The translations under genes and the position numbers were made by a program. Under the pieces are notes generated by a model, which worked only from the letters and a program-made list of their open reading frames with translations, was not told the origin of the DNA and ran no database searches. Source: Bergeyella sp. (GTDB lineage Bacteria; Bacteroidota; Bacteroidia; Flavobacteriales; Weeksellaceae). From it: 24,376 nt of DNA. The DNA lies in NCBI GenBank assembly GCA_032083825.1, contig DAMDNI010000015.1, forward strand, positions 1 through 24,376, read 5' to 3'. Shown here one piece after another: positions 290 to 17,434 of this stretch; within the stretch, counting starts at the first letter, position 1; every line of letters starts with the position of its first letter.

Positions 290-361
290 GCTCCATTAGC
301 ATATCGGCTAGTGCATTCGGCTTTCTACCGAAAGAAAAGGGTTCGATTCCCTTCCTCTCTG
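290..361 (+). tRNA. tRNA-Glu(TTC)-like 3' portion lacking a pairing 5' acceptor strand (pseudo-tRNA or att remnant)
   Basis: Anticodon arm ttcgg-cTTTCta-ccgaa (316-332) and T arm aaggg-ttcgatt-ccctt (337-353) are good. The 3' acceptor cctctct (354-360) has no complementary agagagg upstream (gctccat at 290-296 instead). Confidence 0.3.
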
Positions 362-395
362 CATTAAATGTTGATTTTCAACGCATTATCAATTT

Positions 396-423
396 AACAC
401 CCAAAAACACACCCAACTATTTT
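396..423. repeat. left copy of 'acacccaa' direct-repeat pair (candidate att/arm site of the integrated element)
   Basis: aacacccaaaaacacacccaactatttt. It resembles 17121-17148 gacacccaaatttacacccaattattg at the other end of the integrase-containing region: two acaccca(a) units ~13 nt apart followed by tatt. Confidence 0.4.
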
Positions 424-443
424 TTAGTTGGGTTATTCTTTTT
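411..443 (+). terminator. rho-independent terminator downstream of the tRNA cluster
   Basis: Perfect 9-bp stem acccaacta/tagttgggt with ttttt loop (411-433), followed by the T-rich tattctttttc. Confidence 0.5.
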
Positions 444-470
444 CAATTCTACGGTACCCATCTTTCTAAA

Positions 471-755
471 ATGGAGAACGGACATCTTCTGCCAAGTATT
501 GATATTGTACCACGCTTAATGAAAGTGTTTGCTATTAGTGCAGATCATCTTCTAAATGACAATGAAAGTTCTGTATTAGAGTTACAAAACCACAAACTCA
601 ACGAACAACTAATGCTCATTAATCAGTTGGACGAGAACGAGAAAAACGCTTTGATAAAGATTATAAACTCGATGCTAACGAAAAAAAGAACGAAATACCT
701 GCTGGAAGGAAAGATTTTTTTTAGAAAAATATTTTTTTATACTTTGGAATTATAA
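471..755 (+). pseudogene. 5'-truncated XRE-family HTH regulator remnant
   Basis: Translation starts ..ENGHLLPSIDIVPRLMKVFAISADHLL, which is only the second half of an HTH_XRE domain (the ...W-E-N-G-x-x-x-P-S-hh-x-L-hh-K-h-A-x-x-L-x-h-S-x-D-x-L-L pattern). The in-frame upstream sequence has a stop at 396-398 and no helix-2/3 (QxxLA) half in any frame I read. Confidence 0.5.
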
Positions 756-840
756 AAATATAAGTTTTGATTTATTTTTTTTTAATGATAAATACAAAAC
801 AAAAAGAGTGAAAACAAGCCTGCATTAATTTAATAAACAA

Positions 841-866
841 AAAACCTCGCATTTTGCGAGGTTTTT
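841..866. terminator. bidirectional rho-independent terminator between convergent genes
   Basis: aaaacctcgc-atttt-gcgaggtttt is a perfect 10-bp stem with T/A runs on both sides. It lies between the end of the plus gene (755) and the end of the minus gene (867). Confidence 0.6.
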
Positions 867-1238
867 TTACAAAACTGTATTATATTTCGATATAAGCAAA
901 TGATAAAGAAAGGAAGGTATTTGCTTATTGTAAACAACATCTTCTTTCCTTGTTCCATTATCATAATAGACGGTGTGTAATCCCATTACGTAGATATCCT
1001 TATGGATTTTGACAGTATAAAAACTTATACAATCTTCCGCCGTTGTTTCATTGATGAAGTATAAATCATCATTACTGAATAACAATAACCTGAAAGGCGA
1101 TTTGTTTTCAAGATATTTAAGCTTGTAACCACTGAATACTCTTATTAGTCTAATCTCTTTTATATCTCCCTGTTTAAACCCTTCGTTTATATTCTCTTTT
1201 ATAAAACGATTGGATATATAGTCAAATTCTCCTCTCAT
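867..1238 (-). CDS. hypothetical 123-aa protein; candidate cognate immunity protein of the upstream RHS C-terminal toxin
   Basis: Start is 2 nt after the stop of the RHS toxin gene on the same strand (classic toxin-immunity arrangement). No signal peptide or TM segment. No recognisable family by eye. Confidence 0.4.
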   Translation of the reverse strand: MRGEFDYISNRFIKENINEGFKQGDIKEIRLIRVFSGYKLKYLENKSPFRLLLFSNDDLYFINETTAEDCISFYTVKIHKDIYVMGLHTVYYDNGTRKEDVVYNKQIPSFLYHLLISKYNTVL

Positions 1239-1240
1239 AA

Positions 1241-4200
1241 TTATTCAGATAAGGTATTGTAAAGTTCCGTTCCTGTTTCTGAACCATAATAGTATCCTAC
1301 AGCTCCTCCAACAACGCCACCAATTACAGTTCCCCAAGGTCCGGCAAAAGAACCAATCATTGCACCATATTCTGCTCCTGCCCAAGCTCCTGCCCAACCT
1401 CCAATCTCACCTGATAACGCTTGTGCTTTATTATCCGCAGTTGCCACATTATAGACAGACATACCCGCAGAAACTACAACTACAGCTGTACCTGCTCCTC
1501 TTAATATCTGTGCAGTGCCTGCTCCTCCTCTAATCCTTCCGCTAGGCTTAATTCCCTTAGAAGCGTAATATTTTGCCGTAGCTAGTTGAGCTTCTTTTGT
1601 TTTAAGGATTTGAGACATTGCTTGTCCTTGTGTAGATAATTGAGCCCTAGTTGATTGTTGTAAATGATATCTATAAAAAGCATACTCTGCAGGACTTGTA
1701 TAATTATTATAAATTAATCGATTATTAGGATAATAATAGTTGAGCCTAATATGGGAGTCTTTTGCTACATTATAGCCAGAATACCAAAGCCAAGAAAAAT
1801 TATTAGAATTAGATTTTGAACCACCACCAACTACAACTTCTTCAATTGGTGTTACTTTTAAAGAAGCGGTGTTTGTCTCAGAATTATAAACATACACATT
1901 CTCTTTATCATCAATGTAAGGTTTAAATTCATCTGTTTTTGGACAGGTAGGACAATGTGCAAGAGCATTTCCACCTTCTTCAAACAATCCGGTAGGGTCA
2001 GAAAAATAAGTAGGATTATTAAATGCAAATCTGTAAGGTGTCCAACTAGGCATTATTTCAGAAAGTCCGTCTTGAACAATAAATCTTCCGATATCAGACA
2101 TATAGTGACGGAAATCCATTGCGTACATCCCTGTTTCTTGCAGTTCTTTTCCGTTGTACTTGTAATTATAAGGAATTGACATCGGGTCATAAAGAACAGG
2201 CAGCATATTATTTTTCAGGAAATTCATCCCAAAAGGGTAATAATCATTTCTGTCCATTATAGCGATTGTATTGTCAGGTTTCCGTACATAGCTCACTCTC
2301 ACATTTCCCAGATGATCTTTATACTGGTAAATATAGCGAAGATTTTCATAATCATAATAGCCTTCTGCTGTCGGAAAAAAAGAAAGGACCATATTTTCTA
2401 CTTCCGGATTTCCGGGGTCCACGACCATAGCGACCTGACGGTTCTCCATCGCTGCAAAGGCTTCTTCCTCACCGGCTGTTGTTGCGCTCACTGTCATTTC
2501 GTCTGGCTCTTCCAGTGCCTTGCGTAGCGGGTCCGTATTGGGCGTAGAATATTGAAAACCGTCCAGATATTCTGTATTGATAGTTTTTGTTCCCGAAGCA
2601 TTTGTTAAGACAAATTTCTTCTTGATCTTTACTCCATCTGCCCTGTAATAGTAATTGGTAACGTTAGCATTCTGGTTGATCTGCTTTGGAAGATTCAGAA
2701 AGTTATAAGCAATTGCAGCTATGCCTTTGTCAGGCATAGCTGTGGTATTCCCGTTTGCGTCATACGTCATGGTTTGCCCGCCTCCCTCATAGCCGCTGCT
2801 GTTTCCTGAAGCATCGATAATATTAGTTACTCTGTTTCCAGTGTACTGGTAACTGAGATTGTCTACCACAATAGGTGTATAATATTTGCCGTGTTTTCCG
2901 TTCCTGACGAGAGTTTTGATATTTCCGTTCAGATCGTAGGTCAGCACTTCATCATTGATATGGCTTTCCGGAACCGTATTATCAGGATCTTGATAAAGTC
3001 CTGCCAACAATCTGTTCAACTTATCATACTGGTACCCGTAGCGTTTCAAGGAGTTATCTTTCTCAATCCAGTCTACTTCTGCAATATTGCCGTTGTATTT
3101 AGCGGATGCTATTGTGGGATTTTCCGGGTTATTGTATTTAATTCTATATCCGAAAAGTTTCCCATTATTCAACACGTATGGAGCAGATGTCGGGATATCT
3201 CCGCTATTAATACCTTTCAGCCATCCCCTGATATTATATGCATAATCAACGGTTTGAATCGGGTTGCTTCCTGTTCCGCCTACTTTTTTCTGATCAAGCT
3301 GCCCAATCTCATTATAGTGATTGTCCGTTAACAGTTCTTTCGGAGTAATACCAACGACCTCATGATAATGCTTCAGCAGACGATTCTGATGGTCATATAC
3401 AAATTCTTCCTGTATCACCAATTCAGTATCGGTACTTCTCCTTTTGTGGTAAATATTGCTTTTCTGAGGTACTCCTACAAAATCCAACAGCTTTTCGGTT
3501 TTCGTATAGCCATTCATATGATTGGTACTATGTGTGCCGATGGTTCTTCCTTTTGAATCATACCAAAAATAATTTTTAGTCCAGCCATTGGTTTCCACAT
3601 TATTGATGTAAGAGGCAGTTAGCAAACCTTTAGTGCTGAGACTTCCTGTCTGTGGCAAAACGTCTTGTGCCAAGATTGCAGCCGGAATGGGCGGTGTTCC
3701 TGTAGGATAGGCATCATAATAGTTAACCGATAAAACCTTTGTAAAGGTATTCGGATAGTTATTGACAACAAGATTATCATAATAAACAATCAGGCCTGGC
3801 GTAGTGAAGCCGGAAGAAGAGGTTCTTTCTACATTATTAGAGCCTTTTCCATTAAGCGCGCTTTGCTCATTGTCTCTTCCTGCACCTCCATAAGTCTGGA
3901 CGCTTGCGTAAATTCCTGTATATGCCACTCTTCCGAACTTATCATACTTTGTAAAAACCCATTGTTGATCAGAACCTAAATTAGCATCCTGTGTCATCAC
4001 CAGCCTATCCTGATTATCATAAACAAGATATTCCCATCCCTTACCCGGGATTTTCTTTTCAACAAGGCGGTTTCTTCCATCATATCGGTACTGGTAGCAA
4101 AGATCATCAAGATCAGTTTGCGAAAGTGAGGCTTTGGCGGCAGCTTCCGGCGAAATCACATATGCCAGCTGATTGAATTCATTATACACATAATATGTAT

Positions 4201-4891
4201 CCGAATCTTTGATTCCGTCATTTTTGCGGACAAGTAAAATCTGACCTTCTCCGTTCTTGAATTCGATGCTTACATTGCCGTCCTCATCCGTTACTATATT
4301 TTTATAGAGCTGTGATGCTCCGTAGTTTCCGGATTGTGTAAGAGATGAACTGGTGGCATTGTTTGTCCAAGTGGTCGTAGTGACAAACTTTTTGACTTCT
4401 GTTGCAATATTGGTTCCATAAGCGAAATTAACAGGCTTATTGCTCCAGTCGTTTCCGACTTGTATCTGCTGCTGTATCCTGTCCAACGGAGAGTTTTCCA
4501 ATATTTTTTCTGAATATATTTTTTCAGTTCCGTAAGGAGAAGTAACATTTGATAAAGGATTGCCATAAATTGCTCCGTATGAGCTTCCTTGTTGCGGAAC
4601 GGGAAGATAATCCTTTACCTGCCTACCGAATTCGTCATATTCAATCTTGGTCACTATATCGTTTACCAAGGGAGATGCTTTTACATCCAGTATCTGCTTA
4701 GGTCTTGCTAAGCCATCGAAGTAAGTGATTAATTCAGCTTTATTAATACAATCGGCACCCAAACAGGTTTTAACATATATATAGTTTTCCGTAGAACTGG
4801 GAATTGTCTGTGCATTATATATGGATGATGTAATTAATAATACACCTAAAATATTTTTTTTCATGATCTTTTTAATCTTAATATACATCAT
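1241..4891 (-). CDS. RHS/YD-repeat polymorphic toxin: Sec signal peptide, YD repeats, RHS repeat-associated core ending in DPTGL, ~247-aa C-terminal toxin domain with glycine-zipper tail
   Basis: N-terminus MKKNILGVLLITSSIYNAQ is a signal peptide (likely true start at 4864). Multiple YD repeats (YRYDGRNRLVEKK, YDKFGRVAYTG, YDANGN, YDLNGN). RHS core YYPFGM...NYKYNGKELQETGMYAMDFRHY...GRFIVQDGL...SDPTGL. After DPTGL: AHCPTCPK..., ending GGWAGAWAGAEYGAMIGSFAGPWGTVIGGVVGGAVGYYYG. Confidence 0.85.
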   Translation of the reverse strand: MMYIKIKKIMKKNILGVLLITSSIYNAQTIPSSTENYIYVKTCLGADCINKAELITYFDGLARPKQILDVKASPLVNDIVTKIEYDEFGRQVKDYLPVPQQGSSYGAIYGNPLSNVTSPYGTEKIYSEKILENSPLDRIQQQIQVGNDWSNKPVNFAYGTNIATEVKKFVTTTTWTNNATSSSLTQSGNYGASQLYKNIVTDEDGNVSIEFKNGEGQILLVRKNDGIKDSDTYYVYNEFNQLAYVISPEAAAKASLSQTDLDDLCYQYRYDGRNRLVEKKIPGKGWEYLVYDNQDRLVMTQDANLGSDQQWVFTKYDKFGRVAYTGIYASVQTYGGAGRDNEQSALNGKGSNNVERTSSSGFTTPGLIVYYDNLVVNNYPNTFTKVLSVNYYDAYPTGTPPIPAAILAQDVLPQTGSLSTKGLLTASYINNVETNGWTKNYFWYDSKGRTIGTHSTNHMNGYTKTEKLLDFVGVPQKSNIYHKRRSTDTELVIQEEFVYDHQNRLLKHYHEVVGITPKELLTDNHYNEIGQLDQKKVGGTGSNPIQTVDYAYNIRGWLKGINSGDIPTSAPYVLNNGKLFGYRIKYNNPENPTIASAKYNGNIAEVDWIEKDNSLKRYGYQYDKLNRLLAGLYQDPDNTVPESHINDEVLTYDLNGNIKTLVRNGKHGKYYTPIVVDNLSYQYTGNRVTNIIDASGNSSGYEGGGQTMTYDANGNTTAMPDKGIAAIAYNFLNLPKQINQNANVTNYYYRADGVKIKKKFVLTNASGTKTINTEYLDGFQYSTPNTDPLRKALEEPDEMTVSATTAGEEEAFAAMENRQVAMVVDPGNPEVENMVLSFFPTAEGYYDYENLRYIYQYKDHLGNVRVSYVRKPDNTIAIMDRNDYYPFGMNFLKNNMLPVLYDPMSIPYNYKYNGKELQETGMYAMDFRHYMSDIGRFIVQDGLSEIMPSWTPYRFAFNNPTYFSDPTGLFEEGGNALAHCPTCPKTDEFKPYIDDKENVYVYNSETNTASLKVTPIEEVVVGGGSKSNSNNFSWLWYSGYNVAKDSHIRLNYYYPNNRLIYNNYTSPAEYAFYRYHLQQSTRAQLSTQGQAMSQILKTKEAQLATAKYYASKGIKPSGRIRGGAGTAQILRGAGTAVVVVSAGMSVYNVATADNKAQALSGEIGGWAGAWAGAEYGAMIGSFAGPWGTVIGGVVGGAVGYYYGSETGTELYNTLSE

Positions 4892-4909
4892 AAATTAATT
4901 TGCGAATAT

Positions 4910-7900
4910 TTAGTTTACAGGAAAAACCAGGGGATAATTAAAGGTTGTATTATTAGGCAAAGGTCCGTTATGAGATCTTAGAATAATATCTCCATTAGTT
5001 TTAATTGTATAATATATTTGTCCATTATAAGAATTATAATCCGATGAAGGTCTACAGGTTCCCTGTATGGTTGCAACCCGAACACCTGTTGTCCATGGTA
5101 AATTAGTGGAATTCGGTCCAGTTCCGAATGAGAGAGTGAGACTATAATAATTGTTATTTTGAACAGTAACACTTCCTCCCCCGGAAAAATAAAAAGAGAC
5201 AGGACAATAAAATGATGTGCATGAACCATTAATATTTGCAGCACTTTGTCCATTATTATTAATATCATTTTGTGCCATCTGATCTGCATCAGGCTGACTA
5301 GAATATGAAATATATTTCCCTTCTGGAACGTTATATATATAAGTTCCTCCTATAGCATTAGACCCACAATTGCTTCTTGTAAAAACTTGGCTTTTTTGAG
5401 CATTAAAAAAAATATTAGGAAGAGGTGCAGAGCTATAATTGTAATCCCATTCTTTAATAGTTCTATTATCTTTATCAGTAATTTTTTGCAGCCTGTTTCT
5501 ACTATCATAAGTGTAATTCACCCTTTGCCCAGAAGGGTTTGTTACAGTTTTAAGTCCTATTCCACCCCTATGATATGTATATGTTGTTGTTTGATAATCC
5601 TTTAGATTTGTGTTGGTGCGAAAATTGTCAAGCTTAGAAACTAAATCATCATTGCTATAATTGGAATTAGCCATCATTTGATTAGAACTACTAACAATAT
5701 CTGTAATATATGATTTGACTTGGCTGTATGTCGCACCCTCAACTTTAGCGATTATGCGTGTTTTATTATAACCCCAGACCAATGATACAGGTACACTATT
5801 TTCTGGAGTATATTGTAGAATATTCCCAACATCATCATAAAGATTATAATTTATTTTATCATACTCTTCATTTGTATTTAAATCGATAGCATTTTGAGAT
5901 GAGGGAGCGAGTAAAGTTGAAGACTGATCAACAACAGGCATAAACCCGTAGGATGATTGATTTTTTCCAATATTTTTTGAATCTAAATAAGTTTCTTTTT
6001 GAATAATTGGAAAATTATGTTTATCCAATAGTGATGTATTGACTTGATTGCTTATATGAAATGGATAAAATAATGATTCTTCGATTGTCTTATCAGGATT
6101 TGTGGTTGTTTTAGAAGTTAAGAAATTATCTCCAAAATTATTATTCTTTGTGTAACTATAGGTTTCGCTTTCTTCAATACTTTTACCACCGGAAAAATAA
6201 TTTGTTATTTTTTTGCCTACCAATTCAAAGTCGGAAAAATAAATATTATATGATGAGCCATTTACAATTGGTGCATTGGAAACTCCAGCACATGGAGAAA
6301 TAGAAGTATAACTAAAACCTTTGACACTTTGATTATATGTGTCTTGATATGAGAAATCCTCTTGTCTGACCTTACCTCCTGATTTATCAAAATATTGTCT
6401 TTGCTTGATTCTTCCTCGTTTATATATATACTCTGTATGGGGGTCAAACTTATTTTTATCATTTGCAATATACGTATCGTTCTTAAAGTCAGGATAATCA
6501 CTATAAGTAGAGTAATGATTGAAAATGGTTCCTTTGCCATTATCTTCTATAACGGTCGAGTATTCGATTGTGTTACCCATTAAATTTGAAAGATAGACGA
6601 TAGGCGAAATACTAAAATATGATTGATACATTGTTACACCACTAGCTGTAGTGGGTACTTTATAGTCAGGTAAAAAATAATTATTCTTTTGAAGCAGGAT
6701 ACCCGAAGATTGATTTGATTGCTGATCTGTCACATAGCTAAATTTTTTGATCTGTGGGATTCCAACTCCATCATAGTCAAACATAGACCTAATCCTAACA
6801 CCTCCAATGATTCCATTCTCCTGTTTTAGATCAAGGTCATTTCCAACATATCTCGAATATGTATGAGGTTCATAGAACAATCTAGTGTAACCTTTTGTTG
6901 GATAGGTTATTTTTGATAAGGTCCCATATACCACAGTATTGGGATCTGTAGCTCTAGAAGGCTCGTGCACAGATGGATTGTCATAGTTTAGTACGAAAGG
7001 TGCTGATTTATAATAACCAAAATGGTCAATATTCTTACTTGTAAATAAAGGTAAAGAATCAAAATTATTATATTCGAATGAATATGCTTGCGGTGTTTTG
7101 CTATCTATATTATTAATTGTAATTCTATCTAGTCGTAATCTTGAGTTTGGATTGTCGTTATAACTAAATGCAGCCGTAAGTAATGTATTTTGGTCGGAAC
7201 TCAAAACACTTAGACTTGTTAATTTTCTCCATTTCAATGCTTCGAGATATGGGTATATATGTTCATTCCCTCCCGTAACAGTGGGCAAAACATTCAGATT
7301 TTGATCTCTTCTGATATAATAAAAATAACTATCATCCATTTGACTCCAATTAGCTCCTGTAGCTTGTATATCCTGTCTAAATTTTACAAACGTATCAATA
7401 ATTGGAGAGTCATTTGAACCGTACTTTAATGAATTATTTACTGTAGAATTAAAAGAAATCTGTTTAGATGAGCCTGTAGTAATCTTTTTCAAATAAGAAG
7501 GAATTATTAAATTACCATTTGCATAGACCTTATTACCATCGTTATTACCATATGCGCACCCTCCACCTGCATAGTAACCTGTTGTCAGTTTGAGTGATTG
7601 AAATCCGTTCCTGTCATAAAAGGCAGCGATGTAATCTCCTCTTTCATAATCTAAATCGTAAACTAGTTTATCATATTTGTTATAAACTTTTGTTAGATAC
7701 CATGCACTGGATATAAGTGGTGTATCGATTTGATCAAAGAAATTTTGAAATGTAAATTCGATAGAATTTTGATTTGCCAAGTCTCCAAAAATAAATTTAT
7801 TCCCCTGATCGTCTATTATTGTAATCTTTCCTAGTACTTTCGGAAAAGTCCTATTATTCTGATTATTATATGCAATATAGTAGTAATTATTTGGCTGAAC

Positions 7901-8494: not shown

Positions 8495-8498
8495 GTAT

Positions 8499-10241: not shown

Positions 10242-10417
10242 GTTTTTACCTTTTGAAGGTAGCAGTTTCCCATGATCTTCAAAAGGGTGAAAACACCCAT
10301 TTTTAAGTGACTTTTGTCAACTATTTTTTAAACAGCTTATCATATACTATCTTAAAAACCTGTAAATGAGTACAATATATATTAAACGTAGTTTTTAAGA
10401 AGGATTTTATTTTTGAT

Positions 10418-10459
10418 CATTTTTTATGAAAAACCGGACATTTTTTATGAAAAACCGGA
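10418..10459. repeat. perfect 21-bp tandem duplication cattttttatgaaaaaccgga x2
   Basis: Directly visible at 10418-10438 and 10439-10459, ~180-220 nt upstream of the cargo operon start (10241) in an AT-rich promoter region. Confidence 0.8.
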
Positions 10460-10730
10460 AGAAAAAAAGAAATTCGCTCATTATATCACTATAATGAATG
10501 AATTTTGTTCACTAAAATAACAAGCAAAATGAAATAAATGGATAAGTGATGATTAAGAATAGTAGTATAAAACATTATAATATTTCCTGTAGGGTATCAT
10601 AATTTGTTCTTTTTAGAGGATATCTCTTAATAAAAGCATTACAAAATATCTTAATTTTAGTTACTTTTAAGCATCGAAAGTGAAAAAGAGTAATTTAAAT
10701 TTGAATTATATGAATCAGGAAGTTCAAAGG

Positions 10731-11969: not shown

Positions 11970-12029
11970 ACTTCTTAAATTTAGTTGTTAAATAATTCGG
12001 GGGTTTCCAAAGGGGGAGCATTCCCCTTG

Positions 12030-12088
12030 GCTTATTGGGGCTTTTTTAGTGAAGTGCAACGGAGCGTTAAGAAAAAGCCCTAATAAGC
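12030..12088. promoter_or_regulatory. candidate oriT: 17-bp inverted repeat with 25-nt loop, immediately upstream of the relaxase gene
   Basis: gcttattggggcttttt (12030-12046) pairs with aaaaagccctaataagc (12072-12088) with 1 mismatch. Adjacent imperfect IR ccaaagggggagcattccccttgg (12007-12030). MobV-family oriTs typically sit upstream of mob. Confidence 0.35.
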
Positions 12089-12124
12089 TATGGCTTTTCT
12101 TTTCAAAAGCCTGCCATGCAGCCG

Positions 12125-13082
12125 TCACCTTTTTCTTCTGTAGGTATTTGTCTGTTCAGGATTTCTGCTCTCGTCAACATTGCTGCCTAAACTATTCTTC
12201 AAATCACTTTTGCTTTTGAGATAATCGTTCAGGTCTTTATGGTCGGAATAGGTTACTGAAAAATCTTTTGCTTCCGGAAATTCTTCCATTAATTTTGAAG
12301 TGGCTTTTTTTCCGGCTGGATCATTGTCAAGTAGCAAACTTGGTCTTAGCTTGTTTTCTTTTATCCATTCGACAGCTTTATTGAGATTGGAAAGGGAATT
12401 CAGGATAACACAATCTACTTTAAACTCTTTTTCATTCTTTAAAGTAAGATGGGACAGGAAATCAAACATACCTTCGTAAACCATGCAGATTCTACTTTCC
12501 TGATTGGAGCCACTTCCCTCAACCACAGAAATATCCTGCGAAGTACAACCTTTGAAAAATTCGGAACGAAGATGATAGCCTCCATTGTTACTGAGCCGGC
12601 CCAAAGCAGTGTATTTCCTGTCACCGATGGAATAATGAATCTCCTGCAGATATTTCCCCGCAGTATCAATATTGATTTTACGCTCCTGTAAATAGTGCAA
12701 CAATTTTGAATCCTGAAGAGATTGTATTGTATCAATATTGACATTGGATTGTCTTGTGGTCATTTGATTTCCTATTTTCTCTTTCTCGTTATTGAAGATA
12801 GAATCTGTTTTCAGATTTAAGTCATTCAAGAAAGAAAGAAAGTGCTTCGGAAATGTTTCTTGCTTTTTGCATGGCAATAACTAGGTCAATAATGGTTCCA
12901 CCTTGAGCAGAGCCATGGTCGTACCATAGATTCAGTTTGTCATCAACTTTCATCGATGCCGTTCTTTCCGTTCTCAAGGGAGAGAGGTAAAAATGGTTGT
13001 ATCGAACAATTCTTTGCGGTTGATACCCTAAAGCACTTAGAAAATCGATAATCCTGATATTTTTTGCTGTCTTTGTATTCAT
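12125..13082 (-). pseudogene. toprim-domain DNA primase (Bacteroidota mobile-element type), interrupted by a frameshift inside an (AAAG)3-4 tract
   Basis: N-terminal ORF (13082->12822) gives the characteristic ..IIDFLSALGYQPQR..YLSPLRTERTASMKVDDKLNLWYDHGSAQGGTIIDLV..EALSFFLE then stops. The toprim body continues in another frame (..FLSFLNDLNLK.. to 12125). The frame change falls in aagaaagaaagaaag at 12829-12843. Confidence 0.65.
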
Positions 13083-13172
13083 TTATTTTGGATTTATTGT
13101 GTATTCTTTTTCTTTCAACAGCAATTTTGCTATTGAAAGAAAAATCAGTATTGGGTTATGGGGGTTCGATGA

Positions 13173-13220
13173 CTGGTTTAGTCTGGTTTACTAATATATA
13201 TTAGTAAACCAGACTAAACC
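13173..13220. repeat. 48-bp perfect palindrome tggtttagtctggtttacta-atatatat-tagtaaaccagactaaacca
   Basis: Exact reverse-complement symmetry verified base by base. Lies in the 163-nt spacer between the primase and ATPase genes. Preceded by a second IR ctttcaacagcaa/ttgctattgaaag (13116-13143). Confidence 0.8.
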
Positions 13221-13245
13221 AATAGACCATTGAATGATTTTGGAC

Positions 13246-14283
13246 TCAGTAGTAAAAGTTATGGTTGAATTTGTAAAATCTCCCTTCTTTAAAAATCATC
13301 GTTTTGTTTTGACAAAAGACCTTCAGTTTTTTAGCCTTATTGGTTCCAAAATCATATCCGAAATGAGTATAGGATTCTATGAGCTTTGAAATCAATTCTC
13401 CATAGGAAAGTGATTTTTGGTTTCTGAAAGCAAGCGATAGTGCTTCCCGATGAATTTGTTCCGAGATTTCGTGATAATCAAATCCCTTGGCTTGACCTGT
13501 CTGTATATGATAATCATCCACAGGCTCAGGCAGACCATCGTCATCAATCCTGAAAGCAAAAGGCTCAAACTCAACATCACGAATGCTCATCGGTTTTACA
13601 ATAGAGATATTCGGGTCTTTTTCATCCCTTACCACTTGTAGTATAGTTTCGGCTTTATTCAGCAGTTCAGTTCCCAAATGTCCCCGTGCATTATCATCCG
13701 TTTTATTGACATGTAAAACCGTGTGAATATGCAACTGATAGACTTCTGTCCAGATCATCAGTTTAGAAATAATCTCGGTAGATTCATTCGGGGAATTGAT
13801 ATCGAATACCAAATCTCTGATACCGTCAATAATAACCAATCCCAATGAAGTGGTGCTTTTGATTGCTTCTTCTATAATCTGAATACGGGTTGAAGGATTG
13901 AATCTTCTCAAACAAACAAATTCCAAATTTTTGGGTTGAAATTCCTTGCTCATTCCCGAAAGTTCAATTATCCTTGACAATACTTTCTGACTGTGATACG
14001 GACTTTGTTCGGTATCGAAGTAAATGATTTTCCTCTTATCATCCGGCATTGCTGCATTGTAATTGAGCATTAATCGACAGACTAGAGCAGCTGCGGTCAT
14101 CGCTGTAACACTAAAGGTCTTTCTGCTTTTGGCTTTTCCAACGGTAGCCGAAAAATTTCCAAGTGTTCCTACAACAGATTCATCAATACGGATGACCACA
14201 GGCGGATATTCAAATTTATCGGTAATCAAAAGCCTTGAGGAATGCCATAGACTCTTTATGTCTTTGTTGCTATCCATCATCAT
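13246..14283 (-). CDS. P-loop/RecA-like ATPase of the mobile-element replication module (helicase/primase-associated)
   Basis: Deviant Walker A TVGKAKSRKT and Walker B-like LGLVIIDGIRDL. Start ATG overlaps the stop of the upstream HTH gene (ATGA). Conserved position between excisionase-like and primase genes as in Bacteroidota CTn/IME backbones. Confidence 0.55.
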   Translation of the reverse strand: MMMDSNKDIKSLWHSSRLLITDKFEYPPVVIRIDESVVGTLGNFSATVGKAKSRKTFSVTAMTAAALVCRLMLNYNAAMPDDKRKIIYFDTEQSPYHSQKVLSRIIELSGMSKEFQPKNLEFVCLRRFNPSTRIQIIEEAIKSTTSLGLVIIDGIRDLVFDINSPNESTEIISKLMIWTEVYQLHIHTVLHVNKTDDNARGHLGTELLNKAETILQVVRDEKDPNISIVKPMSIRDVEFEPFAFRIDDDGLPEPVDDYHIQTGQAKGFDYHEISEQIHREALSLAFRNQKSLSYGELISKLIESYTHFGYDFGTNKAKKLKVFCQNKTMIFKEGRFYKFNHNFYY

Positions 14284-14582
14284 TTTCTTCCTCCTGCTTT
14301 ACGTCCTGCCAATTCTAATGCAAGGTTTACATCCACAATTATTTTACGTCCTATCTGTGTGATGGCTTTATCTATTTTTCCACTCTGCTTGATACGGTTG
14401 GCTGTGGGAATGCTGCAACCGAAAAGGCGTGCGATTCCGGCGATTCCGTAAACGTGTTTTTTTATGGAATTATTGAGGGGAACAGACTCAGCTTCTTTAT
14501 GCACATCGGTCTTCTGAAGATAGAGAAATTCTTCACCTGTCATCTGCCAAAGAGGCTTTTGCTTAAGTTCGGTTAGGTTCAT
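14280..14582 (-). CDS. excisionase-like HTH DNA-binding protein (Bacteroidota mobile-element family)
   Basis: KHVYGIAGIARLFGCSIPTANRIKQSGKIDKAITQIGRKIIVDVNLALEL is the HTH_17/MerR-like excisionase motif seen next to CTnDOT-type integrases. Confidence 0.65.
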   Translation of the reverse strand: MNLTELKQKPLWQMTGEEFLYLQKTDVHKEAESVPLNNSIKKHVYGIAGIARLFGCSIPTANRIKQSGKIDKAITQIGRKIIVDVNLALELAGRKAGGRK

Positions 14583-14697
14583 ATTCTTTTACAATGTTAT
14601 GGTTAAACAAGCCTTGTACTTCGGCGTTATTGTTCGAACACATTGCAAATCTATGACGGGAAAAAGGTGGTAAGGAGGTGGATTCCTGAAATTTATA

Positions 14698-14714
14698 TCA
14701 TTGATAATCAATGA
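14698..14714. promoter_or_regulatory. 7-bp inverted repeat tcattga-taa-tcaatga; candidate operator upstream of the xis-ATPase-primase genes
   Basis: Perfect IR ~115 nt upstream of the HTH gene start (14582), in a non-coding gap. Confidence 0.3.
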
Positions 14715-14759
14715 CTATTAAAAATATTTTAAGTGGTAAAAGTGGTTGCTTATGGAATA

Positions 14760-15803
14760 TCAAGAAATAGTATTGAATATTGACTCAATAACGCCTTTAA
14801 ATTCTTTATTTTTCTTATTGCCTTCTTCAGAACTTACGGATACCATTTTATATTTAGAATTGTAAGTGTCCCATTTAATTCCTAATTGATTGAGTAGAAC
14901 AGTTCTCCATTCTTTATTTTCATCAGATTGAAGAACATCATAAAGTTTTGAAATTAAATGATAAGTCCGCTCTTTTTCACCATAATTAATTTTCAGCTTA
15001 GCAATCGTTGGTCGCAAATTGAGAATGTTATAAAAATCTACAACACCCAAATTCTCGAATTGTATTCCATTACATTCTTTATGAATGGATGATATTAATT
15101 GCATATCAAAATACTCTCCCTGTTTTTGTTCGGAATTTTCCTCGGAAGTTGGTCTTATTTCATCAAAAAAATAATTATTTAAAACCAATAGAAAAGAACT
15201 TTCCATTTCGCAAATCTTTCCAAAAACATTATCGGCAAACTTTAGGGATTCTTGACGCAATTTTTCTTTTTCCTGATAAAGTGCATCAAGTTTTTGTTGT
15301 TCGATCTTATACAAGTTGGAAAATTTGTTTATTTTTTCTTCAAGCTCTCTAACTCTAACTTCATCACCTTTCCAACTTGCCGATTCCAAAGAATTTTTTG
15401 CATCCCTTAATTCTATATACTGATTATTGGTATGTTTTTCTTGGATTTTTATTTTGGAGTCAATGGAATTGGCTCTATCCCAGCAAATTTCAAATGTATC
15501 TATATCATCTAAAGAATTTCTATGGTCATTATACTTTTCGATATTCTTTTTTATCACTTTCCGCAATATCGAAAAAACCTGTACTTGTTTTTCCTTGTCT
15601 TTGGAAGTGATGAAATTTAAAACTGCTTTTTCAAAATTTTCAAGATTTCTGAATTGATTAAAAAAAGTAACAATTTGTTGTTGTTCCTCAAAATGCAATA
15701 TTTTGTCTTTCAGTATGTTTTGATATATTTCGTCTAATTTCGTGTATTTCGGCAATATATCCATAATTTGATATAGAGAACCTTGGGTTTTATTTTCTTC
15801 CAT
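14760..15803 (-). CDS. hypothetical 347-aa coiled-coil-rich protein (element accessory/cargo gene, unknown function)
   Basis: Long uninterrupted ORF with Lys/Glu-rich predicted coiled-coil segments, in the same orientation as int and xis. No motifs I recognise. Confidence 0.6.
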   Translation of the reverse strand: MEENKTQGSLYQIMDILPKYTKLDEIYQNILKDKILHFEEQQQIVTFFNQFRNLENFEKAVLNFITSKDKEKQVQVFSILRKVIKKNIEKYNDHRNSLDDIDTFEICWDRANSIDSKIKIQEKHTNNQYIELRDAKNSLESASWKGDEVRVRELEEKINKFSNLYKIEQQKLDALYQEKEKLRQESLKFADNVFGKICEMESSFLLVLNNYFFDEIRPTSEENSEQKQGEYFDMQLISSIHKECNGIQFENLGVVDFYNILNLRPTIAKLKINYGEKERTYHLISKLYDVLQSDENKEWRTVLLNQLGIKWDTYNSKYKMVSVSSEEGNKKNKEFKGVIESIFNTIS

Positions 15804-15811
15804 TTGTCAAA

Positions 15812-17101
15812 TTATAATTGATTAAATTTATCCATTGCACTGGCTTTGATTTCGTCAGCAATATCAATATAGGGTTTCATTGCCTTATAATCACTGTGTC
15901 CCGTCCATTTCATGACAACCTGCGCAGGAATACCCAATGAAAGGGCATTACAAATAAATGTCCGCCTTCCTGCATGAGTTCCCAAAAGAGCATACTTTGG
16001 TGTCACTTCATCGATTCGCTTATTTCCTTTATAGTAGACCTCCCGTACAGGCTCGTCAATTTCCGCCAATTCCGCCAGTTCTTTCAAATAATCGTTCATC
16101 TTCTGATTGGTGATGACCGGAAGAACTTTATCATACTCAAAATGAACTTCTTTATACTTGCCCAGTATTGCTTTGCTGTGGTTGTTTAACTCGATAATTA
16201 AACTGTCCGCAGTTTTTACAGTGGTAATTTCGATATGGTTGTCTTTTACATCACTGCGCCTCAAATTGAATACATCTGAATATCTAAGCCCTGTAAAACA
16301 CTGGAACAAAAAAACATCACGAACTCTCTCCAAGTATTTTTTTGTTTCCGGAATTTTGTATTCTCTCAATTTCGTCAATTCTGCCCAGGTCAAAAATATA
16401 ACCTTCTTTTGAGTGGTCTTTAATTTTGGTTTAAATAATTCAAAGGCAAAATTGGAGGTGTATCCTTTCTTTTTACTCCAGCGAAGAAACCATTTTAGAA
16501 ATCCTATCTGCTTACCGATGGTACTATTTCGAAAGCTCTTCTTGTCACGGAGATAGTTTACAAATTCAGTGAGTTTGTTCTCGTCCCATGATTCGAAAGT
16601 CAAATTTTTATCAAAATCTTCCAAATGCTTTTTCGTGGTGGCAAATTTTTCATAGGTTGCTTCTGTCCAATTGTTATGAACTCCGCAGTCTCGTACAAAT
16701 TCATCAAATTTACCCATGAACGAAAGTATTGAGGATTCTAATTCAAGACTATTAGGCAAATCCTTATTTTGCCGATTATTGAATGCTGCTTTAAGTTGTT
16801 CAGGAGTAGGAATGATTTCGTTTACTTCACATTCTTTGAAAATATCCTGTATATCCGAATAATATTTTAAAAGATCTGAATTGATTTCGGCTGCGGTCTG
16901 CTTAAGTTTATTGGTACAGCCATTTTTTACACGCTGCTTGTCTTTATCCCATTTGGAAAAATCGATACGGTAGCCTGTGGTAAATTCTATCCTTTTATTA
17001 TGGTAAATAACACGCATACGGATAGGTACATTTTCAATCACAGGAAGACCGTCTTTCTTTCTTTTTTCAAGCGCAAAAACTATATTTCGTTTGATATTCA
17101 C
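15812..17101 (-). CDS. tyrosine site-specific integrase (CTnDOT/NBU-like, with N-terminal arm-binding domain)
   Basis: N-terminus RNIVFALEKRKKDGLPVIENVPIRMRVIYHNKRIEFTTGYRIDFSKWD is typical of Bacteroidota integrases. C-terminal catalytic motifs are present (..LTWAEL.., HAGRRTF, HSDYKAMKPYIDI with Tyr). Likely GTG start at 17101. The longest ORF reaches 17158 via TTG. Confidence 0.85.
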   Translation of the reverse strand: MNIKRNIVFALEKRKKDGLPVIENVPIRMRVIYHNKRIEFTTGYRIDFSKWDKDKQRVKNGCTNKLKQTAAEINSDLLKYYSDIQDIFKECEVNEIIPTPEQLKAAFNNRQNKDLPNSLELESSILSFMGKFDEFVRDCGVHNNWTEATYEKFATTKKHLEDFDKNLTFESWDENKLTEFVNYLRDKKSFRNSTIGKQIGFLKWFLRWSKKKGYTSNFAFELFKPKLKTTQKKVIFLTWAELTKLREYKIPETKKYLERVRDVFLFQCFTGLRYSDVFNLRRSDVKDNHIEITTVKTADSLIIELNNHSKAILGKYKEVHFEYDKVLPVITNQKMNDYLKELAELAEIDEPVREVYYKGNKRIDEVTPKYALLGTHAGRRTFICNALSLGIPAQVVMKWTGHSDYKAMKPYIDIADEIKASAMDKFNQL

Positions 17102-17120
17102 GGGTGTATAACATATTAAT

Positions 17121-17148
17121 CGACACCCAAATTTACACCCAATTATTG
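17121..17148. repeat. right copy of 'acacccaa' direct-repeat pair (candidate att/arm site)
   Basis: gacacccaaatttacacccaattattg just upstream of the integrase start. See 396-423. An inverted gggtgt is also present at 17103-17108. Confidence 0.4.
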
Positions 17149-17361
17149 AGATATACAAAGATTTTTTATGATACTCAACTATAACAACAAATTCGTATTA
17201 TACCTGATTATCAATATTTTGATATTCTATAATCATCTAATAGGGTTCAGGAGAAAGAGCCTTATGGAGTACAAAACTGACATTCATTATATAAAAAATG
17301 TCCTGATTTTTCAGCGCAGACGTTCAAAAAAATCAAATGAAACTGAAGGACAATTTTTTCT

Positions 17362-17434
17362 TGCAGAAATGGCGAAACGGTAAACGCGCTTGATTTAGAA
17401 TCAAGATTTTGAGAGTTCGAATCTCTCTTTCTGT
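17362..17434 (+). tRNA. class-I (short variable arm) tRNA with anticodon TAG; Leu anticodon but non-Leu architecture
   Basis: Acceptor gcagaaa/tttctgt (G-U at 1-72). D stem gcga/acgc. Anticodon stem cttga/tcaag with loop ttTAGaa. 5-nt variable loop. T arm gagag-ttcgaat-ctctc. Discriminator a. Confidence 0.5.

What the first reader, a model, noticed from the sequence alone, without database searches (positions are those of the whole stretch)
396..17150. ~16.7 kb integrative mobilizable element inserted between two tRNA clusters, with candidate 'acacccaa' att/arm repeats at both ends
Everything from the truncated XRE remnant (471) to the integrase (to 17101) is a single minus-strand module. The order int - hypothetical - xis-like HTH - P-loop ATPase - toprim primase - oriT-like IRs - MobV relaxase - cargo operon is the backbone of Bacteroidota mobilizable elements (NBU/CTn-like). 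Left of it are tRNA-Asn, tRNA-Pro-like and a tRNA 3' fragment. Right of it are tRNA(TAG), tRNA-Gln and tRNA-Phe. The only sequence shared by the two boundaries is a doublet of acaccca(a) units (396-423 vs 17121-17148), plus an inverted gggtgt at 17103-17108 and a cccaact/agttggg hairpin on the left. These could be core or arm-type integrase sites. The element has a relaxase and oriT but no conjugative transfer genes, so it would be mobilizable in trans.
Basis: partly seen in the sequence, partly recalled or inferred. Interest (0 to 1): 0.6.

Follow-up and report, generated by a model that had tools for sequence, protein, structure and literature searches.

The report
NBU2-type mobilizable element splitting a tRNA-Glu
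This is a 16.9-kb NBU2-family mobilizable element of Bacteroidota carrying an Rhs toxin cassette; it sits inside, and has broken, a spare tRNA-Glu gene instead of its family's usual tRNA-Ser site, which makes it an ordinary kind of element in an unusual landing place.

Summary
It spans 354-17263 (16,910 bp), not 396-17150.

**Right end.** DNA homology to 19 independent relatives stops at 17261/17262.

**Insertion site.** The element splits a tRNA-Glu(ttc) gene of one continuous accessory tRNA array. The 5' 64 nt lie at 290-353 and the missing 3' acceptor strand ATGGAGT at 17264-17270. Only CCTT is shared at the two junctions. Forty-five metagenome contigs carry the intact homologous tRNA-Glu with the predicted junction.

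**Family.** The integrase is 73% identical over its full length to IntN2 of Bacteroides NBU2. The rebuilt attP aligns collinearly with the attN2 site used in pNBU2 vectors. Relatives sit in the 3' end of tRNA-Ser, so this copy is at a secondary site and does not restore the tRNA.

**The ACACCCAA repeats.** The ACACCCAA-N4-ACACCCAA doublets are real, with 0 expected by chance. They are the invariant block of the arms in relatives and are present in attN2. They are internal, probably arm-type integrase sites, not the ends.

**Other modules.** The relaxase is MobV, not the NBU type. The cargo is an Rhs toxin cassette. The primase carries a 4-nt frameshift.

This is a new member of a known kind, of low to moderate interest.

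The parts
290..353 (+). Host side of attL: the 5' 64 nt of tRNA-Glu(ttc), from the acceptor 5' strand GCTCCAT through the T-arm to CCCTT. The 3' acceptor strand is missing.
   Evidence: Rfam tRNA gives only 37.6 bits over model positions 8-63, and ARAGORN does not call it. Intact homologues score 62.8-64.4 bits over positions 1-71. The alignment to 45 intact homologues is.
350..353 (.). CCTT, the only sequence shared by the two junctions (second copy at 17260-17263). This is the crossover region.
   Evidence: Read from the sequence and compared with the intact tRNA-Glu and with the P arms of relatives.
354..363 (+). Left end of the element (P' arm): CCTCTCTGCA, a tRNA-Ser-type 3' acceptor end carried by the element. 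It cannot pair with the tRNA-Glu 5' strand.
   Evidence: It occupies the same position as CTCTCTCCGCA in attL of 12 relatives and in NBU2 attN2.
370..382 (.). Conserved small hairpin GTTGATTTTCAAC just inside the left end.
   Evidence: It occupies the same position as GCTGAAAATCAGC in NBU2 attN2 and relatives.
397..416 (+). Distal doublet ACACCCAA-N4-ACACCCAA, a candidate arm-type integrase site on the P' arm.
   Evidence: Exact match with 0 expected by chance. It lies the same 44 nt from GCA as in relatives with both ends and is present in attN2.
412..432 (.). Hairpin CCCAACT-N7-AGTTGGG that overlaps the second repeat unit. It is specific to this window.
   Evidence: Read from the sequence. 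It is absent from relatives.
447..755 (+). N-terminally truncated RstR/XRE-type repressor remnant.
   Evidence: NCBIfam NF041951 matches residues 2-75 of the ORF to profile positions 36-106 of 108, so about 35 residues are missing at the start.
867..1238 (-). 123-aa ORF directly downstream of the Rhs toxin gene, taken as a presumptive immunity protein from its position only.
   Evidence: ORF list. No family hit.
1241..4891 (-). 1216-aa Rhs-family polymorphic toxin: signal peptide, DUF6443, YD repeats, Rhs core at residues 884-969, and a variable C-terminal domain with a glycine zipper.
   Evidence: Pfam DUF6443 at 104 bits. TIGR03696 Rhs_assc_core at 49.7 bits against a cut-off of 32.5. Gly-zipper hit at E=1e-4.
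4910..8494 (-). 1194-aa secreted protein with an RHS/YD repeat and DUF5977.
   Evidence: Pfam DUF5977 at 83.6 bits and RHS_repeat at 25.6 bits.
8499..10241 (-). 580-aa beta-propeller protein with a T9SS C-terminal sorting domain. The JGI gene calls split it into 362 and 195 aa in the same frame.
   Evidence: Por_Secre_tail at 45 bits, TIGR04183, JGI gene calls.
10731..11969 (-). MobV-family relaxase, 412 aa.
   Evidence: NF041497 MobV at 216 bits against a cut-off of 100. Pfam Mob_Pre at 96 bits.
11998..12111 (.). Candidate oriT: a conserved non-coding block upstream of mob, with a 22-nt inverted repeat at 12025-12046 / 12072-12093.
   Evidence: It is 82-89% identical to distant loci whose flanking genes are about 65% identical. 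The nick site was not identified.
12125..13082 (-). Zn-ribbon/Toprim primase gene interrupted by a 4-nt CTTT insertion at about 12839-12842, giving ORFs 12822-13082 and 12125-12877.
   Evidence: Alignment to the single 317-aa ORF of L047. Pfam hits.
13174..13221 (.). Perfect 48-nt palindrome between the ATPase and primase genes.
   Evidence: It is conserved in L047-L050.
13246..14283 (-). AAA_25 P-loop ATPase, 345 aa.
   Evidence: Pfam. It is 49-97% identical across relatives.
14280..14582 (-). DUF3853 small protein, 100 aa. An excisionase-like role is inferred only.
   Evidence: Pfam DUF3853 at 128 bits. It is 65-91% identical across the family.
14760..15803 (-). 347-aa conserved backbone protein of unknown function.
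   Evidence: No family hit. Homologues at 27-90% identity occupy the same position in relatives.
15812..17101 (-). IntN2-family tyrosine integrase, 429 aa, GTG start at 17101.
   Evidence: 73.2% identity over 429 aa to IntN2 from pBH001/pNBU2, against 30% to IntN1. Pfam arm-binding, SAM-like and catalytic domains. It is 98-99% identical to the copy in Cruoricaptor ignavus.
17102..17107 (.). Inverted partial copy (GGGTGT) of the repeat unit, abutting the int start codon.
   Evidence: Read from the sequence. The equivalent AATTGGGTGCG is at the same place in attN2 and in many relatives.
17123..17142 (+). Int-proximal doublet ACACCCAA-N4-ACACCCAA, a candidate arm-type site on the P arm.
   Evidence: The two 8-mers are the invariant block in an alignment of 22 diverse arms whose mean column identity is 69%. 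The doublet is present in 69 of 80 integrase loci.
17243..17263 (+). Right end of the element (core side of the P arm): GGGTTCAGGAGAAAGAGCCTT, a T-arm-like sequence conserved in relatives.
   Evidence: Homology to 19 loci ends at 17261/17262 and none goes further. Alignments.
17264..17273 (+). Host side of attR: the displaced 3' end of tRNA-Glu (ATGGAGT, discriminator A, then CA).
   Evidence: It is one of only 4 positions on the window's + strand that pair 7/7 with GCTCCAT, and ATGGAGTACA is unique in the window. It is identical to the 3' end of many of the intact homologues.

Best explanation
The segment 354-17263 (16,910 bp) is an integrative mobilizable element of the NBU2 family.

**Integration.** Its IntN2-type tyrosine integrase recombined the element's attP with a secondary target. 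That attP is collinear with NBU2 attN2. It has internal ACACCCAA doublets on both arms as probable arm-type sites. Its core is ...GGTTC..GAGCCT(T)|CCTCTCTGCA, which mimics the 3' end of tRNA-Ser. The target was the T-stem/acceptor junction of a tRNA-Glu(ttc) gene in an accessory tRNA array. The T-arm of that gene (GGGTTCGATTCCCTT) resembles the T-arm of the normal tRNA-Ser target (GGGTTCGAATCCCTC).

**Consequence.** Only CCTT is common to the two partners. The element's Ser-type 3' end therefore cannot rebuild the tRNA-Glu, which is split and inactivated.

**Excision and transfer.** Recombination between attL and attR would release a circle and restore the tRNA-Glu. The MobV relaxase would then nick the conserved oriT-like block upstream of its gene. 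A co-resident conjugative element would supply the transfer machinery.

**Cargo.** It is an Rhs polymorphic-toxin cassette with a T9SS-sorted partner and a presumptive immunity gene.

**Shown versus inferred.** Shown: the boundaries, the split tRNA, the family membership of the integration module and the conservation of the repeats. Inferred: the arm-site function, the oriT, present-day mobility and the role of the cargo.
For: **Boundaries**
- BLAST homology to 19 independent integrase loci stops at 17261/17262, and no locus matches beyond that or within 354-10700.
- The left end has the same layout as the distal ends of 12 relatives and of attN2: acceptor-like 3' end, hairpin, then the doublet 44 nt after GCA.

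**Split tRNA**
- 290-353 is a tRNA lacking its 3' strand (37.6 bits, model positions 8-63).
- The complementary ATGGAGT follows CCTT at 17264, one of 4 such positions among about 24,000.
- The predicted junction GGGTTCGATTCCCTT|ATGGAG occurs in 45 metagenome contigs, most with a syntenic array, and the next bases TACAAA are also shared in many of them.
- Intact homologues score 62.8-64.4 bits.

**Family**
- The integrase is 73.2% identical to IntN2 over its full length and 30% to IntN1 (sequences from the supplement of PMC9259675).
- attP aligns with attN2 with only two single-base gaps.
- Backbone proteins are shared with NBU2-like loci, in the same order as in MTnBf8, whose excision was shown experimentally (PMC13597742).

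**Canonical target**
- About 60 of 80 relatives are followed by [C/G]TCTCTCCGC. Eleven of the 12 relatives with both ends in view have an intact tRNA-Ser(tga) at the far end.
- NBU2 is reported to target the 3' end of tRNA-Ser (PMC8816746, PMC6692515).

**Repeats**
- 0 expected by chance, invariant in 22 diverse arms, and the integrase has an arm-DNA-binding domain.

**Tolerance of mismatch**
- IntN2 integrates at sites with base differences and outside tRNA-Ser (PMC6692515).
- IntDOT needs identity only on one side of its 7-bp overlap (PMC2817482).
Against: - No same-species contig with an empty site was found. The closest arrays are 87-92% identical in the tRNA region.
- No circular form could be looked for.
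- The ARAGORN 'reconstitution' test proved non-specific: 107 of 463 arbitrary joins also gave a tRNA-Glu call.
- The primase has a 4-nt frameshift and the neighbouring repressor gene is truncated, so the copy may no longer be fully mobile.
- The relaxase is MobV rather than the NBU-type Mob, so the mobilization half is not NBU2-like.
- Binding of the integrase to the ACACCCAA units is not demonstrated for any member, as far as I could find.
Confidence: 0.88

Rival explanations
1. One reading: the element is bounded by the ACACCCAA doublets (396-423 and 17121-17148), which act as att or core repeats, and it sits in an intergenic gap between two tRNA clusters.
For: The doublets are the longest exact sequence shared by the two end regions and are far beyond chance.
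Against: - Homology to relatives continues 120 bp beyond the right doublet, to 17262.
- In attN2 and in relatives with both ends, the doublets lie inside the element on either side of a tRNA-derived core.
- The sequences outside the doublets (354-396 and 17143-17263) are conserved element sequence.
- A tRNA-Glu is split exactly at 353/17264.
Confidence: 0.03
2. Assembly artefact: the metagenome assembler wrongly joined an element from one organism to a tRNA array from another through shared tRNA-like sequence.
For: The window is a single metagenome contig seen in one sample. tRNA T-arms are repeated sequences (family D1).
Against: - The two junctions are reciprocal and exact: 290-353 plus 17264-17273 rebuild a 73-nt tRNA-Glu with no base lost or gained.
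- Two independent misjoins would not produce that.
- The sequence shared at the junctions is only 4 bp, far below any assembler word length.
Confidence: 0.03
3. The element is a decayed, immobile relic that can no longer excise or transfer, rather than a working mobilizable element.
For: - The primase is frameshifted by a 4-nt insertion relative to the single ORF in L047.
- The repressor gene next to the left arm is truncated.
- The Ser-type 3' end carries a T where relatives have C.
- From my own knowledge of NBU1 (Shoemaker et al. 2000, cited in PMC5704250), excision of that element needs several backbone genes.
Against: - The integrase is full length and 98-99% identical to that of a cultured strain.
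- It keeps the LRYSD, HAGRR and GHSDYKAMKPY catalytic motifs seen in functional IntN2.
- Both arms, all repeat units, the relaxase and the oriT-like block are intact.
- The backbone is 93% identical in DNA to L047, so the insertion looks recent.
Confidence: 0.3
4. This lineage has been retargeted, so that tRNA-Glu genes of accessory tRNA arrays are its regular site and the insertion is not an off-target event.
For: The T-arm of the array tRNA-Glu matches the tRNA-Ser T-arm at 13 of 15 positions. Such arrays are widespread.
Against: - None of the 45 arrays examined carries an insertion at this tRNA.
- None of about 65 relatives with a readable flank has the tRNA-Glu flank.
- The closest relative (98-99% integrase identity) is flanked by a Ser-type end.
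- The element's own left end still carries a Ser-type acceptor strand.
Confidence: 0.05

Closest known systems
NBU2 (Bacteroides mobilizable transposon; IntN2/attN2, the basis of pNBU2 vectors)
   Same: - The integrase is 73.2% identical over its full length.
- attP is collinear with attN2. Both have an inverted half-site at the int start, a proximal ACACCCAA doublet, a spacer of about 115 nt, a GGTTC...GAGCCT core next to a tRNA-Ser-type 3' end, a small hairpin and a distal doublet.
- Relatives integrate in the 3' end of tRNA-Ser, as reported for NBU2 (PMC8816746).
- The int, hypothetical, DUF3853, AAA and primase genes are shared with NBU2-like loci.
   Different: - This copy sits in a tRNA-Glu with only 4 bp of identity and does not restore the gene.
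- The relaxase is MobV with its own oriT-like block, whereas NBU1 and NBU2 are listed as MobP (PMC5704250) and NBU2-like loci show no match to this Mob.
- The cargo is an Rhs toxin cassette rather than resistance genes.
- The size is 16.9 kb against about 11 kb.
MTnBf8 of Bacteroides fragilis (PMC13597742, 2026)
   Same: - The backbone order and sizes match. MTnBf8 has int 428 aa, hypothetical 347 aa, DUF3853 103 aa, AAA 359 aa and Toprim primase 319 aa, followed by mob, then cargo, then a tRNA gene.
- The corresponding proteins here are 429, 347, 100 and 345 aa, and 317 aa for the primase once the frameshift is repaired.
- The size is similar (16.3 kb).
- Excision to a circle was shown experimentally for MTnBf8.
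   Different: - MTnBf8 has 25-bp direct repeats at a tRNA-Ser, an extra DUF1016 gene, an NBU-type mob, a second integrase and nimB cargo.
- I had no MTnBf8 sequence, so the comparison rests on its published table only.
NBU1 (IntN1/attN1, 3' end of tRNA-Leu)
   Same: - The logic is the same: a heterobivalent tyrosine integrase at one end, a primase homologue, oriT and mob, and a tRNA 3' end as target.
- attN1 in pBH002 also shows doublets of a short repeat (TTTTCCCCA, 11-12 nt start to start) on both sides of its core.
   Different: The integrase is only 30% identical, and only in the catalytic domain. The repeat sequence and the target tRNA differ.
Tn5520 and other MobV-relaxase mobilizable elements of Bacteroidota
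   Same: The relaxase class is MobV (NF041497 at 216 bits). Tn5520 is listed as MobV in PMC5704250.
   Different: Tn5520 is a minimal two-gene element that inserts in AT-rich DNA (PMC5704250).
CTnDOT IntDOT recombination (mechanistic analogue)
   Same: It has an arm-binding tyrosine integrase. Recombination needs identity only at one side of a 7-bp overlap and tolerates mismatch in the rest (PMC2817482). That would explain insertion with only CCTT shared.
   Different: It is a different, conjugative element and no close integrase relationship was tested. The cleavage positions of IntN2-type enzymes are not known to me.

Membership tests
NBU2-type integrative mobilizable element | Integrase homologous to IntN2 | tested here: met
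   73.2% identity over 429/427 aa, 652 bits, to IntN2 translated from pBH001. Identity to IntN1 is only 30%.
NBU2-type integrative mobilizable element | Attachment site organised like attN2, with the integrase gene next to it | tested here: met
   The rebuilt attP (17099-17263 + 354-433) aligns with attN2 with only two single-base gaps. The doublets, core and hairpin fall at the same positions.
NBU2-type integrative mobilizable element | Integration in the 3' end of a tRNA-Ser gene, with a common core of about 13 bp that leaves the tRNA intact | tested here: not met
   This copy lies in tRNA-Glu(ttc), shares only CCTT and leaves the tRNA truncated. Relatives do meet the feature.
NBU2-type integrative mobilizable element | NBU-type Mob/oriT module (shared with NBU1; classed MobP in PMC5704250) | tested here: not met
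   The relaxase is MobV. tblastn of it finds nothing in the NBU2-like loci L070-L126, except for L086 and L112. This test is by proxy, because no NBU2 mob sequence was available.
NBU2-type integrative mobilizable element | Excision to a circle and mobilization in trans by a conjugative transposon | not testable with these tools
   This needs reads from the sample or an experiment. No transfer genes lie inside 354-17263.
MTnBf8-like backbone | Gene order int, 347-aa protein, DUF3853, AAA ATPase, Toprim primase, mob, cargo, tRNA | tested here: met
   Pfam results were compared with Table 1 of PMC13597742. The DUF1016 gene is absent here, and no sequence-level comparison was made.
Heterobivalent (arm-binding) tyrosine recombinase | N-terminal arm-DNA-binding domain plus a catalytic domain with the conserved residues | tested here: met
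   Arm-DNA-bind_5 at 44.2 bits (cut-off 22.6), SAM_5 at 34.5 and Phage_integrase at 34.4. The LRYSD, HAGRR and GHSDYKAMKPY motifs are identical to those of IntN2.
Heterobivalent (arm-binding) tyrosine recombinase | Arm-type sites bound by the N-terminal domain | tested here: inconclusive
   The ACACCCAA doublets sit on both arms, are non-random and are invariant across 22 diverse arms. Binding itself was not tested.
MobV relaxase | Match above the curated cut-off to the MobV / Mob_Pre models | tested here: met
   NF041497 at 216.3 bits against 100. PF01076 at 96 bits against 25.5.
MobV relaxase | Cognate oriT with a defined nick site | tested here: inconclusive
   A conserved block at 11998-12111 with a 22-nt inverted repeat was found. 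No nick site was identified.
Rhs polymorphic toxin cassette | YD/Rhs repeats, an Rhs-associated core ending in DPxGL, a variable C-terminal toxin and a downstream immunity gene | tested here: met
   TIGR03696 at residues 884-969, 49.7 bits against 32.5. The DPTGL motif is visible in the translation. The C-terminal 247 aa match only glycine-zipper models. Immunity is inferred from gene position.

The most novel reading that the evidence does not exclude
The junctions are a natural record that IntN2-family integrases can complete recombination when only about 4 bp (CCTT) at one edge of the crossover region match. Site choice would then be driven mainly by the tRNA T-arm. NBU2-type elements could therefore land in, and inactivate, any tRNA with a GGTTCGAxTCCCT T-arm, including the redundant genes of accessory tRNA arrays. 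This would matter for off-target use of pNBU2 vectors and for how such arrays pick up mobile DNA.
Probability: 0.35. Interest if true: 0.4.

Novelty: new member of a known kind. Interest (0 to 1): 0.27.

Why it matters
- It corrects the element's borders by using the experimentally used attN2 site as a ruler.
- It shows that NBU2-type integration modules extend, at 73-99% integrase identity, from gut Bacteroides to Flavobacteriales, and are combined with different relaxase modules (MobV here) and different cargo (an Rhs toxin here).
- It documents a natural secondary-site insertion that destroys a tRNA gene. IntN2 is a standard tool for integrating DNA into Bacteroidota, so a natural example of T-arm-guided off-target integration with almost no core identity is useful background.
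- None of this changes what is known about how such elements work.

Tried and rejected
- **Mis-indexed joins.** My first ARAGORN 'reconstitution' used joins 3 nt off and still called a tRNA-Glu.
- **Non-specific control.** 107 of 463 arbitrary joins also give a tRNA-Glu call. I dropped ARAGORN as evidence. I relied instead on exact acceptor-stem pairing, the homologous intact tRNAs and the homology end-points.
- **No long junction repeat.** I looked for a long direct repeat between the two junctions. There is none beyond CCTT, and the shared ATTATCAAT (386-394 and 17206-17214) is internal to the arms.
- **Papers not held.** The original NBU2 paper (PMC101958) and the IntN1 arm-site paper (PMC3889623) were not available. 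IntN2, attN2, IntN1 and attN1 sequences were recovered instead from plasmid sequences in the supplement of PMC9259675.
- **Unrelated island.** The Riemerella anatipestifer 10K island (PMC6764341) has a different integrase N-terminus and a tRNA-Arg target.
- **Viral origin of the array.** The tRNA-Glu junction has no match in viral contigs.
- **Cargo and 347-aa protein.** Relaxed Pfam searches of the toxin C-terminus, the presumptive immunity protein and the 347-aa backbone protein gave nothing informative.

Full report
**What the window is.** The window is the whole of one JGI metagenome contig (sample 3300014648, Ga0121400_100190).

ARAGORN and Rfam find tRNA-Asn (50-123), a weak tRNA-Pro (212-284), and tRNA-Leu(tag), Gln and Phe (17363-17596). 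Rfam also finds a partial tRNA at 297-353 that covers only model positions 8-63, at 37.6 bits.

**Gene content of the block.**
- a tyrosine integrase with an arm-DNA-binding domain (15812-17101, GTG start);
- a 347-aa protein without family;
- a DUF3853 protein;
- an AAA_25 ATPase;
- a Zn-ribbon/Toprim primase;
- a MobV relaxase (NF041497, 216 bits against a cut-off of 100);
- a cargo of three large secreted proteins: a T9SS-sorted beta-propeller, an RHS/DUF5977 protein, and a DUF6443-YD-Rhs-core protein with a glycine-zipper C-terminus;
- a small ORF downstream of the toxin gene.

No conjugation genes are present. The 'XRE remnant' (ORF 471-755) is an RstR-type repressor lacking about 35 N-terminal residues. 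It lies on the + strand, not the minus strand.

**The repeats.** ACACCCAA-N4-ACACCCAA occurs exactly twice, at 397-416 and 17123-17142. The two copies are in direct orientation with identical spacing, and none is expected by chance. The question is what the repeats mark.

**The right end.** A scan of one genome per species with the integrase found more than 560 relatives. The best is 98-99% identical, in Cruoricaptor ignavus DSM 25479. Others are 90-92% identical in Flavobacteriales MAGs and a Chryseobacterium, and 73-75% identical in many Bacteroides, Phocaeicola and Prevotella.

BLAST of the window against the 80 loci kept shows that homology ends at 17261 or 17262 in 19 loci. No locus matches beyond that point, and none matches the cargo region 354-10700. 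The backbone 10723-17262 is 93% identical to the Cruoricaptor locus.

**What lies outside the ends in relatives.** In about 60 of the 80 loci the conserved terminal sequence ...GGTTC..GAGCCT is followed by [C/G]TCTCTCCGC and then a terminator-like hairpin. A few loci have CCAACTCCAC or GCCAGCTCCAC instead.

Twelve loci also contain the far end. Eleven of them have an intact tRNA-Ser(tga) whose 3' end runs into the element. It is followed by a small hairpin and, 44 nt after GCA, a second ACACCCAA doublet. The family therefore integrates into the 3' end of tRNA-Ser and keeps that gene whole. The doublets are internal features of both arms. They are present in 69 of the 80 loci and form the invariant block in an alignment of 22 diverse arms whose mean column identity is 69%.

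**The window's own junctions.** The left flank 290-353 reads as a tRNA-Glu(ttc) from its 5' acceptor strand GCTCCAT through the T-arm to CCCTT. It is followed by CCTCTCTGCA, which cannot pair with GCTCCAT.

The complementary strand ATGGAGT, plus discriminator A, lies at 17264-17271, directly after the CCTT where homology to relatives stops. Only four positions on the window's + strand pair 7/7 with GCTCCAT, and ATGGAGTACA is unique in the window.

I searched the metagenome collection for the predicted uninterrupted junction GGGTTCGATTCCCTTATGGAG. It occurs in 45 contigs. Most of these carry a syntenic array: tRNA-Pro upstream, Leu/Phe/Gln downstream, then the same RNaseH-like gene as at 17641-18126. 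In many of them the tRNA continues ATGGAGTACAAA, as at 17264-17275. These intact homologues score 62.8-64.4 bits over the full tRNA model.

The element therefore spans 354-17263, which is 16,910 bp. It splits a tRNA-Glu gene inside one continuous array. The only sequence common to the two junctions is CCTT.

A caution on method. My early ARAGORN reconstitution test is worthless on its own, because 107 of 463 arbitrary joins also give a tRNA-Glu call.

The two junctions are exactly reciprocal and share only 4 bp. A double assembly error is therefore very unlikely.

**Which family.** Plasmid sequences in the supplement of PMC9259675 gave me the pNBU2 backbone (intN2 plus attN2) and the pNBU1 backbone.

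The window's integrase is 73.2% identical to IntN2 over all 429 residues, including the catalytic motifs. It is only 30% identical to IntN1, in the catalytic domain.

The attP rebuilt from the window (17099-17263 joined to 354-433) aligns with attN2 with only two single-base gaps. Both sequences have, in order:
- an inverted partial repeat abutting the int start codon;
- the proximal doublet;
- a spacer of about 115 nt;
- GGTTC..GAGCCT next to a tRNA-Ser-type 3' end (CCTGTCTCTCCGC in NBU2, CCTTCCTCTCTGC here);
- the small hairpin;
- the distal doublet.

The backbone order and protein sizes also match MTnBf8 of B. fragilis, a tRNA-Ser element whose circular excision product was shown by inverse PCR (PMC13597742).

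tblastn shows that the integrase, the 347-aa protein, DUF3853, the ATPase and the primase are shared with the NBU2-like Bacteroides loci. The MobV relaxase is shared with only a subset: L047-L050, L055, L059, L062, L086 and L112. NBU1 and NBU2 are classed as MobP in the review PMC5704250. The element is therefore an NBU2-type integration and maintenance module joined to a different mobilization module.

**How it most likely works.**

*Shown:* the integrase family, the att architecture, the conservation of the doublets, the canonical tRNA-Ser target of relatives, and the split tRNA-Glu here.

*Inferred:*
- The doublets, and the inverted copy at the int start, are arm-type sites bound by the integrase's N-terminal domain. 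attN1 of NBU1 shows analogous doublets of TTTTCCCCA on both arms.
- The tRNA-Glu was used as a secondary site because its T-arm (GGGTTCGATTCCCTT) matches the tRNA-Ser T-arm (GGGTTCGAATCCCTC) at 13 of 15 positions.
- To the right of CCTT the partners are unrelated (ATGGAGT against CCTCTCT), so the exchange tolerated a mismatched crossover region. There is precedent for this. IntN2 integrates at sites with base differences and sometimes outside tRNA-Ser (PMC6692515). IntDOT needs identity only at one edge of its 7-bp overlap (PMC2817482).
- One relative (L103) keeps the host base two positions right of CCT in attL and the element base in attR. This is the opposite of the window. It fits a crossover region extending a few bases to the right of CCT. 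This is an inference only.
- Because the element brings a Ser-type acceptor strand, the tRNA-Glu is not rebuilt. The related arrays hold 6-16 tRNA genes and often two tRNA-Glu(ttc) copies, so the loss is probably harmless.
- The block 11998-12111 upstream of mob is 82-89% identical to loci whose neighbouring genes are about 65% identical, and it contains a 22-nt inverted repeat. It is the best oriT candidate, but no nick site was identified.

**State of the copy.** The integrase, both arms, the relaxase and the oriT-like block are intact. The primase has a 4-nt CTTT insertion at about 12839-12842 that splits the 317-aa ORF seen in the Cruoricaptor element. The repressor gene next to the left arm is truncated. 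Whether the copy can still excise is open.

The finding is a new member of the well-known NBU2 family. It has three points of modest interest: a MobV module in place of the NBU-type one, an Rhs toxin cargo, and a natural secondary-site insertion that destroys a tRNA gene of an accessory array.

Noticed in passing
window 1-353 and 17264-19377; loci L002-L046: The host locus is an accessory tRNA array: a tRNA 3' fragment at 1-44, then Asn, Pro, Glu, Leu, Gln and Phe. It is followed by genes for an RNaseH_like protein (PF04308), a 106-aa ORF, a cREC_REC 'cyclic-phosphate processing receiver' domain protein and an RNase_T exonuclease. Most of the 45 metagenome contigs with the junction, some over 1 Mb, carry syntenic arrays of 6-16 tRNAs followed by the same RNaseH_like gene. 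This link between a tRNA array and RNA-processing genes may deserve its own study.
   Followed up: partly
window 19604-19768: Three more degenerate tRNA-like pieces lie downstream of the exonuclease gene. One has a T-arm (19672-19690) identical to that of tRNA-Pro (258-276). There is also a sub-threshold match to the YrlA/Y-RNA-like family at 19643-19758 (36.6 bits against a gathering score of 69).
   Followed up: no
window 290-353 and homologues in L005, L007, L015 and others: The anticodon loop of this tRNA-Glu(ttc) family reads CTTTCTA, that is T at position 37, where a purine is usual. A second variant in other arrays reads CTTTCGA.
   Followed up: no
window 12839-12842: A 4-nt CTTT tandem expansion frameshifts the primase gene relative to the single 317-aa ORF in the Cruoricaptor ignavus element (L047 14021-14974).
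   Followed up: yes
window 13174-13221: A perfect 48-nt palindrome lies between the ATPase and primase genes and is conserved in L047-L050. Its function is unknown; it could be an operator or an origin-like site.
   Followed up: partly
window 8499-10241: One uninterrupted 580-codon ORF (beta-propeller plus T9SS sorting domain) is annotated by JGI as two genes of 362 and 195 aa in the same frame. This is probably a gene-calling artefact.
   Followed up: partly
L077, L078, L089, L102, L107: Near-identical NBU2-like elements (integrase 74% identical to the window's) appear on contigs binned as Agathobacter, Acutalibacteraceae, Lachnospiraceae or Bacilli MAGs. Mis-binning of a Bacteroidota mobile element is the likely cause. 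Real cross-phylum presence was not examined.
   Followed up: no
L079 9840-19510 (also L080, L083, L088): A roughly 9.5-kb relative in tRNA-Ser(tga) carries a class A beta-lactamase gene (CfxA-like by Pfam). Its terminal sequences are identical in contigs assigned to Phocaeicola, Bacteroides and Capnocytophaga.
   Followed up: partly
L047 16484-20107: The closest relative (Cruoricaptor ignavus) has the same backbone but a different cargo, including a 753-aa N6-methylase/HSDR_N restriction-modification type protein. This shows cargo exchange downstream of mob.
   Followed up: partly
L096 2825-2843 and 9960-9978: This Bacteroides ndongoniae locus has a second ACACCCAA doublet in inverted orientation 7 kb upstream of the integrase. 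That suggests a second, oppositely oriented element or a remnant nearby.
   Followed up: no
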